A DNA stretch of 64,000 bases from Shigella phage ESh15. The notes beneath the pieces were generated by a model, which did no database searches, was not told the origin of the DNA, and saw only the letters and a program-made list of their open reading frames with translations. This document shows positions 1,455 through 17,836 of this stretch, one piece after another. Numbering within the stretch: position 1 is the first letter of the stretch; each line of letters opens with the position of its first letter. Position numbers and translations under genes: made by a program. The stretch lies in sequence record ON528725. One strand, 5' to 3'.

Positions 1455-1667
1455 TTAATTTTGGCCAGTATTTATTTTTCGCCTTTGGACGGCCTTAACA
1501 TCTGCGAGGTATTTTTCCAGCTTGCGCTTGCGTGTATAATCAGCTTTAGAACCAGTTTGACGGATATCCTCGTTTAAATGAGAAATAGAATGTCCTAATT
1601 CTCTTCGGATTTCATCCAATTGGGTTACAGTAAGATTACGAAGTTGTCTTTCGTTTAATTGCTGCAT
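1455..1667 (-). CDS. hypothetical basic protein (70 aa), rI.1 position
   Basis: ATG at 1665-1667 with AGAGG SD; between tk and rI. Confidence 0.5.
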
Positions 1668-1694
1668 ATATACCTCTTGGTTAGATATTAGTAT

Positions 1695-2276
1695 TTATAA
1701 CAACCCTGTCAAATCATTCCAATGCTTCCGGCATAATGACACGTATCTATCGGTATCACCAATTTCAATTTGACTGCCATCTGTAATTGGAAGTCCGTCT
1801 TCCGTGACTCTAGCTACCATTGTGGCCTTTTTACCACAATGACAGACACCTTTAAGTTCAACAAGCTTATCGGCAATAGCCATTAATGCTTGAGAACCTT
1901 CAAATAGATTACCTTTAAAATCTGTTCGTAGTCCATATGCCATTACTGGCACATTGTATACGTCAACAATACGACTAAGTTGATACACCTTTTCAGTAGT
2001 TAAGAACTGAGCTTCGTCAACAAATACACAGTGAATATCCTTTTGTGCCGCAGCCCATTTATAGAATTCAAAGACATCCATATCTTCGGTAATTATATTG
2101 GCATCCTGACGAATACCAATACGAGAGACTATTTCACCTTTTGAATCACGAGTATCAATAGCCGGTTTAAGAACTAATACACCCATGCCACGTTCTTTAT
2201 AGTTATGTGCGGCAGTAAGTAATGAAGCAGACTTACCAGCGTTCATAGCGGCATAGGTAAAAATTAAACTAGCCAT
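1695..2276 (-). CDS. tk: thymidine kinase
   Basis: 193 aa, P-loop AMNAGKS, zinc-ribbon CHCGKKA...CRKH; T4 Tk length. Confidence 0.9.
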   Translation of the reverse strand: MASLIFTYAAMNAGKSASLLTAAHNYKERGMGVLVLKPAIDTRDSKGEIVSRIGIRQDANIITEDMDVFEFYKWAAAQKDIHCVFVDEAQFLTTEKVYQLSRIVDVYNVPVMAYGLRTDFKGNLFEGSQALMAIADKLVELKGVCHCGKKATMVARVTEDGLPITDGSQIEIGDTDRYVSLCRKHWNDLTGLL

Positions 2277-2285
2277 AAGAGTCCC

Positions 2286-2468
2286 TTATAGTGAATTCAC
2301 ATAGTCAATGAGTTCTTGTTCTTTCCTGTCAAATGATTCCAACAATGCTTGATATTCTTCATCTGTTAAAGGAGCATATTCATCGTACGCATTGGTGGCT
2401 GCTTGCTCATCCAATAGGTCATGGATAAGTTCGAACAGTTTAGCTTTTTCTTCTTTAGTCAATTTCAT
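2286..2468 (-). CDS. hypothetical acidic protein (60 aa)
   Basis: ATG at 2466-2468; tk.1 position. Confidence 0.45.
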   Translation of the reverse strand: MKLTKEEKAKLFELIHDLLDEQAATNAYDEYAPLTDEEYQALLESFDRKEQELIDYVNSL

Positions 2469-2959
2469 TTAGGTTCCCAATCAACAATCACAATTTCTAG
2501 TTTAGTGGAATACGTATCTAAAATCTCTTCGATGACATCCCAGTTTCCACCACCAATACCTGCACCAATTCTTGGCATATAAATTACAGGCTTTGTTATC
2601 TTATTCTTTCCGAATTTATTTAATTCTATTATACAATTCATTAAAGCAGAGTACTCAAAATTAGGTCCCGGCTCAAACTGTGTATAAAGATTAAAGCAAT
2701 AAGCTTTATGGGTCTTAAAATATTTTTCATAAACCGAATAAGACCCGAGTTTAGACTCGTCTCCGAATTCGGTTTGAAGTTTATCGGCTTCCAGAATTTT
2801 TGGATAAGCCTTTGCTAATTGACCTGCTACACCAGCGCCCATTGTATGAAAACAATTACACCCATGAGCAATATTATTACCTTTAGAAAACAGGGCGACA
2901 ATATCGCCCTTGATATAGTTTTTAATCACTTGCTGCAAGTCCTCTAGTATAAGAGTCAA
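2465..2959 (-). CDS. macrodomain-like protein (putative ADP-ribose binding or hydrolase)
   Basis: motifs N-x-x-x-MGAGVAGQL and P-R-IGAGIGGG match the two glycine-rich loops of macro domains; first codon is TTG at 2957-2959 (GGTGGA SD), alternative GTG at 2927-2929. Confidence 0.55.
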   Translation of the reverse strand: MTLILEDLQQVIKNYIKGDIVALFSKGNNIAHGCNCFHTMGAGVAGQLAKAYPKILEADKLQTEFGDESKLGSYSVYEKYFKTHKAYCFNLYTQFEPGPNFEYSALMNCIIELNKFGKNKITKPVIYMPRIGAGIGGGNWDVIEEILDTYSTKLEIVIVDWEPK

Positions 2960-3269
2960 CTAGACGGTCCACCATAGAATTGCATGCTGCCTTATCTTTA
3001 GGTTCCGCCACCGAGCATTCTAATATTTGCCATTTTTTATAGTATCTTTTAATTAAGGTAGACGCCTTGAACCTACTAGACGCCCCATCTTTTTCTCCGT
3101 CTTTATATGCGTATAACAATTTTTGTGAAAAATCTACTTTACACTCTTGACTTTTACCACAATAATCAGACGCCGTTCTGTTTGTATACTCCGTTACATC
3201 AGTATATGTAGTATTAGCAAGAGCGTTAAATGAAACCAAGCCAACTATTAAAGCTAACATTTTGGTCAT
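2922..3269 (-). CDS. small secreted/periplasmic protein with signal peptide (vs position)
   Basis: 115 aa, N-terminal MTKMLALIVGLVSFNALA signal peptide, ATG at 3267-3269. Confidence 0.5.
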   Translation of the reverse strand: MTKMLALIVGLVSFNALANTTYTDVTEYTNRTASDYCGKSQECKVDFSQKLLYAYKDGEKDGASSRFKASTLIKRYYKKWQILECSVAEPKDKAACNSMVDRLVDSYTRGLAASD

Positions 3270-3808
3270 TCTTTTATTTCCAGTAGTTTATTTGATTTAA
3301 GGTAATTAGCCTTTTCTAGGACTTCAGAAGCATATTTACTTCCAGCACTTGTCTTCCATCCCGCATTATATGAGGATATGGCTTTCCTTATATCCCCGTT
3401 ATGTATATTTAACCAATAAGAAAATTCGATATAAGCCCATCTTGCTGAATTAGACCGCTTAGATAGCATTTTCTTAATTTGGGCATCAGTCATATTATAA
3501 CCAAGCTGGTTAATTCTTGCCCTCATTGTTGGTAGATAGTTTTGGAACATTCCATACGCATGGTGACCTTTCTTATCTTTAAGATTAATACCGGCGGATG
3601 ATTCTTGCCATAGTATTGCGGCCATTATGTATCCAAGTCCTTTCTTATGCATATTTTCATGCGTTTTAAATTTTCCGTCCTTAGAAAACTGTTCCCCAAA
3701 CTGATAAGCATAATTCAAGTTATCGAGTTGGACATTACTAAAAGTATGCTCGGAGCTATGTGCTGATAACGAAAGAGCAAATAGACCAGCGAGTAGTGCT
3801 TTTCTCAT
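3266..3808 (-). CDS. periplasmic lytic-transglycosylase-like (SLT domain) protein
   Basis: 180 aa, signal peptide, catalytic-type E-S-S motif (ILWQESSAG) and AYNAG-like SYNAGW motif; GAGGT SD. Confidence 0.6.
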   Translation of the reverse strand: MRKALLAGLFALSLSAHSSEHTFSNVQLDNLNYAYQFGEQFSKDGKFKTHENMHKKGLGYIMAAILWQESSAGINLKDKKGHHAYGMFQNYLPTMRARINQLGYNMTDAQIKKMLSKRSNSARWAYIEFSYWLNIHNGDIRKAISSYNAGWKTSAGSKYASEVLEKANYLKSNKLLEIKE

Positions 3809-3816
3809 GTTTACCT

Positions 3817-4275
3817 CTAGATTTTAATCACTGCTTTAGAAGCTTTTCCTGGTAGTCGTTTACTGTTAATAATAGCCATTCTGCATTGAAGAGTCTTCAT
3901 TTTGAATGCCGGATTTTCGCGACAAACTGTAAGTCCTAACCAAAGATTTCCATCAGTTATTTCTAAACGGCCTGGGCGATATTCGACACCTTCGACAAAA
4001 TCTTCATCAACATCTGGACGTGCCGGCATTGATAAAAATTCTGCAACTTCTTTAACATGATTTTTTACTTTATGAAATAATTCAAAAACGTAATTCTCAT
4101 CTATTTCTCTCTGGATGGCACGATCTAAGAGATGTTGAGAATACTTGATATGAAAGCCTGGTAGTCCAAGAGACTTTGCAGCATCTTTTATACCGGCATT
4201 TATTTTGCGGAACTCCGTTTCAAAGATTCGACGGAGTTTATTACGACGGATAAAAACTTCCGAATTGATAGTCAT
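3817..4275 (-). CDS. regB: RegB site-specific endoribonuclease
   Basis: 152 aa; N-terminus MTIN(S/T)EVFIRRNKLRR and C-terminus CRMAIINS(K/R)RLPGKASKAVIK match T4 RegB as recalled. Confidence 0.85.
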   Translation of the reverse strand: MTINSEVFIRRNKLRRIFETEFRKINAGIKDAAKSLGLPGFHIKYSQHLLDRAIQREIDENYVFELFHKVKNHVKEVAEFLSMPARPDVDEDFVEGVEYRPGRLEITDGNLWLGLTVCRENPAFKMKTLQCRMAIINSKRLPGKASKAVIKI

Positions 4276-4300
4276 TTTGATTTCTCCTCTAGTTGACAGG

Positions 4301-4332
4301 TCTATAGTAACACAACTAGAGGAGAAGTAAAC
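4301..4332 (-). promoter_or_regulatory. early promoter cassette upstream of regB
   Basis: gtaaac 4327-4332; -10 TACTAT from plus tctatagta 4301-4309; 12-bp inverted repeat including the SD. Confidence 0.6.
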
Positions 4333-4336
4333 TACT

Positions 4337-4546
4337 TTATTCTTGGAACGGTGTGAGTTTTCCAGCTATCGAACAAATTTCTACCATCGCAGGATAAAAC
4401 TCTTTCACTTGTTCAAGGCGCTGGACAGCGTACCGCATTTCGCCTTCTTCAAGACAAGCCGCCTGGTCATCGAGCAAATATTTGTGGTAACCTGTACAGG
4501 CTTCGCTAATGATACGTTGGAATTCTTGCAAACTTTCAATTTTCAC
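4337..4546 (-). CDS. hypothetical protein (69 aa), probable GTG start
   Basis: first codon GTG (plus cac 4544-4546) with GAGGA SD, overlapping upstream stop by 1 nt. Confidence 0.4.
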   Translation of the reverse strand: MKIESLQEFQRIISEACTGYHKYLLDDQAACLEEGEMRYAVQRLEQVKEFYPAMVEICSIAGKLTPFQE

Positions 4547-17681: not shown

Positions 17682-17758
<77 letters not shown>

Positions 17759-17761
17759 GAT

Positions 17762-17836
17762 TGGTGACCCTGGCTGGTTTCGATCCAGCTACCTATCAGT
17801 TATGAGCTGACAGCTCTCCCATTGAGCTACAGGGCC
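17762..17836 (-). tRNA. tRNA with CAT anticodon (Ile-CAU/lysidine type or Met)
   Basis: hand-folded cloverleaf: acceptor GGCCCTG/CAGGGTC, D-stem GCTC/GAGC, anticodon loop CTCATAA, T-arm GCTGG-ATCGAAA-CCAGC, encoded CCA; 3 nt from tRNA-Arg. Confidence 0.7.

What the first reader, a model, noticed from the sequence alone, without database searches (positions are those of the whole stretch)
2465..2959. Macrodomain-like protein near tk
The 164-aa protein has two glycine-rich loops arranged as in macro domains (NxxxMGAGVAGQL and PRIGAGIGGGNW), which bind or hydrolyse ADP-ribose. Bacterial defences such as DarTG and some retron and Thoeris-type pathways use ADP-ribosylation or ADP-ribose-derived signals, so a phage macrodomain could reverse them; it could also balance the phage's own Alt/ModA/ModB ADP-ribosyltransferases. 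Its first codon appears to be TTG or GTG rather than ATG.
Basis: inference. Interest (0 to 1): 0.6.

Follow-up and report, generated by a model that had tools for sequence, protein, structure and literature searches.

The report
T-even phage macrodomain AdfM (Tk.4)

Summary

A November 2025 preprint found tk.4 as the single T4 gene needed to grow on a DarTG2 host and renamed it adfM. Public records already call this protein "macro domain protein".

One detail goes beyond the literature I read. The catalytic lysine of DarG (K80) and TARG1 (K84) is an invariant glutamine here (260 of 260 homologues), as in SCO6735, a thymidine-ADP-ribose hydrolase whose Gln85 is essential. The PhiKZ protein also named AdfM keeps the lysine. 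T-even AdfM therefore probably uses the lysine-independent SCO6735-type mechanism, and in the papers I read its enzyme activity is inferred, not shown.

The parts
2465..2929 (-). Coding sequence of the macrodomain protein (154 aa plus TGA stop), the Mosigvirus orthologue of T4 tk.4 / adfM
   Evidence: ORF. 84% identity over 153 aa to T4 Tk.4 NP_049723. Same coordinates annotated as 'macro domain protein' in phage moha. Pfam Macro above threshold. AF2 pLDDT 95.7.
2927..2929 (-). GTG start codon, most probable
   Evidence: T4 has ATG at the identical codon. Homologues start 'MI' here. tblastn matches begin at residue 11 of the 164-aa reading.
2940..2944 (-). Shine-Dalgarno GAGGA, 10 nt upstream of the GTG and inside the 3' end of vs
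   Evidence: Read directly from the sequence. T4 has GAGGA 11 nt upstream of its ATG.
2930..2959 (-). In-frame upstream extension from the TTG at 2959; probably not translated as part of this protein, since it lies within the vs coding sequence
   Evidence: No homologue covers these 10 codons. vs ends at 2922.
2855..2866 (-). H22-G-C-N25 motif, aligned with His24 and Asn27 of SCO6735 and Asn22 of DarG
   Evidence: hhalign to SCO6735. MAFFT. N25 in 258/260 and H22 in 253/260 homologues.
2822..2842 (-). First glycine-rich loop M30-GAGVAG36, the ADP-ribose diphosphate-binding loop 1 of macrodomains
   Evidence: Read from the sequence. G33 invariant in the 64-sequence alignment and 259/260 in the larger set; G31 227/260.
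2678..2692 (-). N80-L-Y-T-Q84 strand end. Q84 occupies the position of the catalytic Lys80 of DarG, Lys84 of TARG1 and the essential Gln85 of SCO6735
   Evidence: hhalign. MAFFT. Q 260/260, Y82 260/260 and N80 259/260.
2540..2575 (-). Second glycine-rich loop P119-RIGAGIGGGNW130 (loop 2). G126 sits at the position of TARG1 Asp125
   Evidence: Read from the sequence. Alignments.
2922..3269 (-). Upstream neighbour vs (valyl-tRNA synthetase modifier). Its last 8 nt overlap the macrodomain start (GTGATTAA)
   Evidence: Annotation of moha and T4. Sequence.
2286..2468 (-). Downstream neighbour, a 60-aa DUF7438 protein (tk.1-tk.3 region). Its ATG overlaps the macrodomain TGA stop (ATGA)

Best explanation
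The gene encodes a stand-alone 154-aa macrodomain of the ALC1/TARG1-like class. It is the Mosigvirus orthologue of T4 Tk.4, now named AdfM (anti-DarT factor macrodomain). It lies on the same strand as vs, a small DUF7438 gene and tk, with overlapping stop and start codons that suggest translational coupling. Its most likely job is to act as an orphan antitoxin against DarTG2. The host toxin DarT2 attaches ADP-ribose to thymidine in single-stranded phage DNA, and this protein removes it so that replication can continue. Shown here: the fold, the class, orthology with T4 tk.4 and conservation of the pocket. Shown by others: T4 lacking tk.4 becomes sensitive to DarTG2. Inferred: that protection works by hydrolysis of thymidine-ADP-ribose. 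Also inferred: that the chemistry follows the lysine-independent route described for SCO6735, in which a glutamine (Q84 here), held by an asparagine (N25), positions the distal ribose and a backbone-held water starts the reaction, rather than the catalytic lysine of DarG.

For: Orthology. The protein is 84% identical to T4 Tk.4 over its full length. The gene order tk - small ORFs - this gene - vs - vs.1 - regB is the same as in T4.

Function of the orthologue. T4 tk.4 was the single hit in a DarTG2 screen, and the knock-out was sensitised (10.1101/2025.11.20.689424). T4 lacking adfA and adfN remained DarTG2-resistant, which had predicted such a factor (PMC11825919).

Mechanism. Q84 aligns with DarG K80, TARG1 K84 and SCO6735 Q85. 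N25 aligns with N27 and H22 with H24 of SCO6735. Q84 is present in 260/260 homologues. SCO6735 cleaves thymidine-linked ADP-ribose on ssDNA and rescues E. coli from DarT. Its Q85A and Q85E mutants are dead and N27S is nearly dead (PMC9411070).
Against: No biochemical assay of any T-even AdfM is reported in the papers I could read; the preprint itself says enzymatic removal only 'seems likely'. The genetic evidence is for T4, not for this 84%-identical allele, and comes from a preprint. The canonical catalytic lysine is absent. The longer 'mobile loop' of SCO6735, carrying Lys89, whose mutation considerably lowers its activity on DNA, is 5 residues shorter here. Val25 of SCO6735 is Gly23 here, although only its backbone is invoked in the mechanism. 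My model contains no ligand, and I could not inspect side-chain geometry.
Confidence: 0.75

Rival explanations
1. The protein counters DarTG2 without catalysis. It binds and blocks DarT2 directly, or binds ADP-ribosylated DNA, using the macrodomain only as a binding module.
For: The catalytic lysine of DarG and TARG1 is missing. Catalytically dead SCO6735 Q85A, DarG K80A and TARG1 K84A all still inhibit DarT in vitro, and SCO6735 does so most strongly (PMC9411070). Another phage factor, ICP1 AdfB, is proposed to work through direct interaction with DarT (PMC11481870).
Against: Every residue that SCO6735 needs for catalysis (Gln, Asn, His) is kept in 253-260 of 260 homologues, which fits an active enzyme better than a pure binder. 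The protein lacks the C-terminal DarT-binding domain of DarG. A stoichiometric binder would be expected to track particular DarT2 variants, yet this family occurs in about 2,800 phage records from many host genera.
Confidence: 0.12
2. It is a small-molecule ADP-ribose derivative processing enzyme, as in the historical annotations 'phosphatase, A1pp motif', 'Poa1p-like' and 'O-acetyl-ADP-ribose deacetylase'. It would clear ADP-ribose-1''-phosphate or O-acetyl-ADP-ribose, and DarTG2 protection would be secondary.
Against: Poa1p has Ser, not Gln, at the Q84 position and lacks N80. The only phenotype found for T4 tk.4 is DarTG2-specific. I found no 2'-phosphotransferase or sirtuin gene next to this gene that would generate such substrates.
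Confidence: 0.08
3. It reverses or tunes the phage's own Alt/ModA/ModB ADP-ribosylation of host proteins or RNA, or it destroys ADP-ribose-derived immune signals such as those of Thoeris.
For: Macro domains do occur in Thoeris ThsA as signal sensors (8r66 and 8v6q appear among distant matches).
Confidence: 0.04

Closest known systems
T4 Tk.4 = AdfM (anti-DarT factor macrodomain; bioRxiv 10.1101/2025.11.20.689424)
   Same: It is 84% identical over the full length. It has the same position between vs and tk and the same start codon position and Shine-Dalgarno sequence. All conserved pocket residues are shared.
   Different: The start codon is GTG instead of ATG. The vs stop overlaps by 8 nt instead of 4. 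G127 replaces the K of T4 in loop 2; G is the family consensus. One small ORF separates it from tk, against three in T4. This allele has not been tested experimentally.
Streptomyces coelicolor SCO6735 (PDB 5E3B) and Bacteroides BT1257 (2AFC/2FG1): Gln-type ALC1-like macrodomains
   Different: Identity is only 23-31%. The mobile loop is 5-6 residues shorter and lacks Lys89. Gly23 stands where SCO6735 has Val25. SCO6735 and BT1257 are cellular proteins, whereas this one is from a phage.
DarG antitoxin of DarTG2 (M. tuberculosis 5M3I, T. aquaticus 5M31/5M3E)
   Different: It has Gln in place of the catalytic Lys80. There is no C-terminal DarT-binding domain: the match covers positions 4-148 of the 338-position model and scores 32.5 bits against a cut-off of 250. 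There is no adjacent darT gene.
PhiKZ gp104, also named AdfM (Cell Rep 2026; PMC13309987)
   Same: It is a phage stand-alone macrodomain that counters DarTG2. For PhiKZ, removal of ADP-ribose from DNA was shown in vitro.
   Different: The PhiKZ type keeps the DarG-like motifs V-N-x-V-G-V-M-G and F-P-T-K, with N23 and K78. It is only 19% identical to this protein. A tblastn search with the T. aquaticus DarG macrodomain finds the PhiKZ type in 265 phage records (chimalliviruses, phiEco32-like phages and others), with no T-even phage among the 30 records sampled across the ranking. The Tk.4 type is in 2,799 records. They are two lineages that share one name.
Human TARG1/OARD1 (4J5S)
   Same: It is the top Foldseek match (E 1.9e-10), with hhalign probability 98.3. 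TARG1 also cleaves thymidine-ADP-ribose (PMC12879935).
   Different: The TARG1 catalytic pair Lys84/Asp125 is Gln84/Gly126 here.

Membership tests
Macro domain (Pfam PF01661) | Profile score above the curated gathering threshold | tested here: met
   27.7 bits against 22, covering profile positions 2-117 of 118.
Macro domain (Pfam PF01661) | Mixed alpha/beta macro fold superimposable on solved macrodomains | tested here: met
Macro domain (Pfam PF01661) | Binding of ADP-ribose | not testable with these tools
ALC1/TARG1-like macrodomain class | Closest structural and sequence neighbours are TARG1, DarG, SCO6735/BT1257, ALC1 and Poa1p rather than MacroD, PARG or viral Mac1 | tested here: met
T4 Tk.4 / AdfM orthologous group | Full-length high identity and conserved gene position | tested here: met
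   84% identity over 153 aa. Position between vs and the tk cluster.
T4 Tk.4 / AdfM orthologous group | Required for growth on a DarTG2-carrying host | not testable with these tools
   Shown only for T4 (10.1101/2025.11.20.689424).
DarG antitoxin (NCBIfam NF048014; PADLOC DarG) | Catalytic lysine (Lys80 of T. aquaticus and M. tuberculosis DarG) | tested here: not met
   Gln84 occupies this column, and it is Gln in 260/260 homologues.
DarG antitoxin (NCBIfam NF048014; PADLOC DarG) | Two-domain architecture with a C-terminal DarT-binding domain, scoring above the equivalog cut-off | tested here: not met
   The protein is 154 aa. The match covers only positions 4-148 of 338 and scores 32.5 bits against 250. 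In PADLOC it covers positions 4-145 of 329.
DarG antitoxin (NCBIfam NF048014; PADLOC DarG) | Encoded next to a darT toxin gene | tested here: not met
   The neighbours are vs and a DUF7438 gene.
SCO6735-type (Gln-type) thymidine-ADP-ribose hydrolases | Gln at the catalytic-lysine position, supported by an Asn (Gln85 and Asn27 in SCO6735) | tested here: met
   Q84 and N25 align with Gln85 and Asn27, and H22 aligns with His24.
SCO6735-type (Gln-type) thymidine-ADP-ribose hydrolases | Extended mobile loop with Lys89/Lys94 that clamps DNA | tested here: not met
   The loop is 5 residues shorter and no equivalent lysines align.
SCO6735-type (Gln-type) thymidine-ADP-ribose hydrolases | Hydrolysis of N3-thymidine-linked ADP-ribose on ssDNA | not testable with these tools
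   This needs an enzyme assay.
Poa1p-type ADP-ribose-1''-phosphate phosphatase | Poa1p active-site residues (His23 and Ser30 were the residues mutated in the solved structures) and overall similarity | tested here: inconclusive

The most novel reading that the evidence does not exclude
T-even AdfM is not a captured DarG antitoxin. It belongs to a separate, very large branch of ALC1-like macrodomains defined by H-G-C-N ... N-x-Y-T-Q, which removes base-linked ADP-ribose without any catalytic lysine, by the SCO6735-type substrate-assisted mechanism. Like SCO6735 it may also erase uridine-ADP-ribose on RNA or Glu/Asp-linked protein marks, which would make it a broader eraser than an anti-DarT2 factor alone. 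Two unrelated phage solutions, this Gln-type and the Lys-type of PhiKZ, would then be hidden under the one name AdfM.
Probability: 0.35. Interest if true: 0.45.

Novelty: already known. Interest (0 to 1): 0.25.

Why it matters
The finding tells an annotator that this gene should be labelled adfM (anti-DarTG2 macrodomain) rather than 'phosphatase' or 'hypothetical protein'. It also shows that records which start the gene at the internal ATG truncate the active site. For the field, the useful point is mechanistic. The family occurs in about 2,800 phage genomes and has 8,910 cluster representatives at E <= 1e-10, and it carries an invariant glutamine where DarG and TARG1 have their catalytic lysine. 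The assumption that it simply copies DarG chemistry should therefore be tested. The protein would also make a compact, easily expressed model for lysine-independent reversal of base ADP-ribosylation.

Tried and rejected
TTG at 2959 as the start was rejected. It follows an in-frame stop directly, lies 38 nt inside vs, and no homologue covers those residues. The TTG at 2938 was also rejected because it is only 1 nt from the Shine-Dalgarno sequence.

Filing the protein as DarG was rejected: the catalytic lysine, the C-terminal domain and a neighbouring darT gene are all absent.

Filing it as a MacroD/YmdB-type O-acetyl-ADP-ribose deacetylase, which is the name JGI gives to many homologues, was rejected. 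E. coli YmdB (1SPV) and other MacroD-type structures are much weaker matches.

ICP1 AdfB was checked as a possible relative, but the paper describes it as acting probably through direct interaction with DarT, not as a macrodomain enzyme.

The phmmer pairwise alignment to BT1257 misplaces the NLYTQ strand because of the loop-length difference. I therefore relied on hhalign and MAFFT.

I tried to read LeRoux et al. 2022 (PMC9250638) to learn how RB69 behaves on DarTG2, but the paper is not held.

I looked for informative domain fusions among longer homologues. I found only one NUDIX fusion and one DUF4326 fusion, and no DarT-binding domain.

The hairpin inside the 5' end of the gene was considered as a terminator. 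It is not conserved in phiR1-RT, and its folding z-score is modest, so the question is left open.

Full report
**1. Observation**

The window holds an ORF at 2465-2959 on the minus strand, 164 aa if read from a TTG. It lies 189 nt upstream of tk in the direction of transcription. tk is at 1695-2276 and matches Pfam TK at E 1e-56.

**2. Identity of the window and the gene**

The region 1600-4400 is 98.3% identical to Escherichia phage moha, a Mosigvirus (RB69-like Tevenvirinae). It matches more than 150 related genomes at 95-99%.

In moha the same gene is annotated 'macro domain protein' at coordinates that correspond to window 2465-2929. Other records call it 'phosphatase', 'Poa1p-like family protein' or 'hypothetical protein'.

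The gene order is tk, a 60-aa DUF7438 gene, this gene, vs, vs.1, regB. This is the order of T4 tk, tk.1-tk.3, tk.4, vs, vs.1, regB. The protein is 84% identical to T4 Tk.4 over 153 residues without gaps.

**3. Start codon**

- The TTG at 2959 is only the first start-like codon after an in-frame TAG, and it lies 38 nt inside vs.
- tblastn matches to other phages begin at residue 11 of the 164-aa reading.
- All aligned homologues begin 'MI' at that point.
- T4 has ATG at precisely that codon, preceded by GAGGA 11 nt upstream.
- The window has GTG at 2929-2927, preceded by GAGGA at 2944-2940.

The protein is therefore 154 aa. Its start overlaps the vs stop (GTGATTAA), and its TGA stop overlaps the ATG of the next gene (ATGA). 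This arrangement suggests translational coupling. One record, vB_EcoM_NBG1, starts the gene at the internal ATG instead and loses the first 28 residues, including the H-G-C-N motif.

**4. Is it a macrodomain?**

Yes.

- Pfam Macro scores 27.7 bits against a gathering score of 22 and covers the whole profile.
- phmmer against PDB sequences finds BT1257 (E 4e-11), Poa1p (1e-8), SCO6735, TARG1 and DarG.
- A profile of 64 homologues raises these to E 6e-17 to 9e-12.
- AlphaFold2 with that alignment gives pLDDT 95.7 and pTM 0.91.
- Foldseek against the PDB puts TARG1, Poa1p, DarG and BT1257 on top.

The protein belongs to the ALC1/TARG1-like class.

**5. What it does**

Full-text search found the T4 orthologue in a November 2025 preprint (10.1101/2025.11.20.689424). 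In a transposon screen of T4 on E. coli carrying DarTG2, tk.4 was the single significant hit. A clean deletion sensitised T4, and the authors renamed the gene adfM. They stated that enzymatic removal of ADP-ribose from DNA 'seems likely'.

This fills a gap left by an earlier paper, which showed that T4 lacking adfA and adfN is still resistant to DarTG2 (PMC11825919).

The only matches of the window protein in the defence-system library and in NCBIfam are DarG. In both cases only the macrodomain half of the model is matched, and the score is far below the equivalog cut-off. The protein is an orphan antitoxin-like macrodomain, not a DarG.

**6. Mechanism**

I recovered the real sequences of M. 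tuberculosis and T. aquaticus DarG, BT1257 and SCO6735 from the PDB search outputs and aligned them to the family.

- hhalign gives 98% probability to DarG, TARG1 and SCO6735 alike.
- In all three alignments, and in an independent MAFFT alignment, Gln84 of the window protein stands in the column of DarG Lys80, TARG1 Lys84 and SCO6735 Gln85.
- Asn25 and His22 match SCO6735 Asn27 and His24.
- Gly126 stands where TARG1 has Asp125; DarG also has Gly there.
- In 260 homologues, including 140 additional representatives from a full HMMER scan of 1.84 billion cluster representatives, the glutamine is present in 260/260, Tyr82 in 260/260, Asn80 in 259/260 and Asn25 in 258/260.

SCO6735 is a proven thymidine-ADP-ribose hydrolase that rescues E. 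coli from DarT. Its Q85A and Q85E mutants are inactive and N27S is nearly inactive. The proposed mechanism uses the glutamine to hold the distal ribose and a backbone-positioned water to start the reaction (PMC9411070). SCO6735 also removes uridine-linked ADP-ribose from RNA (PMC13036486).

I therefore expect the T-even protein to be an active hydrolase of this lysine-independent type. There are differences from SCO6735. The mobile loop is 5 residues shorter and lacks Lys89, and Gly23 replaces Val25.

**7. Relation to the other 'AdfM'**

A 2026 paper gave the same name to PhiKZ gp104 and showed de-ADP-ribosylation in vitro. That protein has Asn23 and Lys78, like DarG (PMC13309987).

A PhiKZ-like copy (phage OMKO1) is only 19% identical to the window protein and carries F-P-T-K. 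tblastn with the DarG macrodomain finds this Lys-type in 265 phage records, mostly chimalliviruses and phiEco32-like phages, with no T-even phage among the 30 records sampled across the ranking. The Tk.4 type is found in 2,799 records.

The two AdfMs are separate lineages of the same class.

**8. Rivals**

- A purely binding or inhibitory role is possible, because dead SCO6735, DarG and TARG1 still inhibit DarT in vitro. However, near-invariant conservation of the catalytic-type residues argues for an enzyme.
- Reversal of Alt/ModA/ModB marks and destruction of Thoeris signals have no support.

**9. Verdict**

It describes a gene that is already annotated as a macro domain protein and whose T4 orthologue has been assigned the proposed function. 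Novelty is 'already known' and interest is low.

The residual value lies in three points: the Gln-for-Lys active site, the lack of published enzymology for the T-even protein, and the annotation problems caused by the GTG start.

Noticed in passing
window 2892-2910 (-), codons 7-13 of the macrodomain gene: There is a perfect 8-bp hairpin, AGGGCGATATTGTCGCCCT, followed by GTTTTCT. It is flagged as terminator-like and is unique in the window. The same hairpin is present in T4 and in phage ESh28 but not in Yersinia phage phiR1-RT. The folding z-score is only -2.1. The vB_EcoM_NBG1 record annotates it as a terminator. It could be an attenuator or RNA-stability element between vs and adfM, or a by-product of the codons for KGDIVAL.
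   Followed up: partly
L006 718-1098 (phage vB_EcoM_NBG1), equivalent to window 2465-2845: In at least one Mosigvirus record the gene is called from the internal ATG (126 aa). This removes the first strand and the H-G-C-N motif, apparently because the true start is GTG.
   Followed up: yes
L003 1470-1980 (Shigella phage ESh28) compared with T4 L002 4340-4460: ESh28 has the T4-identical end of vs and the first 49 nt of the macrodomain gene, including the hairpin, but the rest of the protein is only 58% identical to the window protein. Across T-even phages the gene falls into identity classes of 95-99%, 80-90% and below 60%. This suggests allele replacement by recombination at this locus.
   Followed up: partly
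window 2286-2468 (-); T4 L002 3347-3926; L003 1952-2719: The number of small ORFs between the macrodomain gene and tk varies. There is one here (DUF7438, 60 aa), three in T4 (tk.1-tk.3), four in ESh28 and none in phiR1-RT.
   Followed up: no
window 2922-3269 (-), gene vs: The gene immediately upstream, vs, has no Pfam match. The same preprint that named adfM reports vs as the most strongly depleted T4 gene in minimal glucose medium.
   Followed up: no
window 3266-3808 (-), vs.1 homologue: This 180-aa protein with an N-terminal hydrophobic leader is labelled 'endoribonuclease' in phage moha, 'SLT transglycosylase' in phage vB_Eco_F27 and 'hypothetical protein' in T4. It has no Pfam match at E <= 0.001. 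The moha label looks like a mis-transfer from regB.
   Followed up: no
window 17682-17836 (-): There are two adjacent tRNA genes, tRNA-Arg(TCT) and tRNA-Met(CAT), and they are the only ones in the 64-kb window.
   Followed up: no
proteins P0244 and P0213, metagenomic homologues: Rare members of the Gln-type family are fused to a C-terminal NUDIX domain (P0244) or an N-terminal DUF4326 domain (P0213). This hints at links with other ADP-ribose or nucleotide-processing activities.
   Followed up: no
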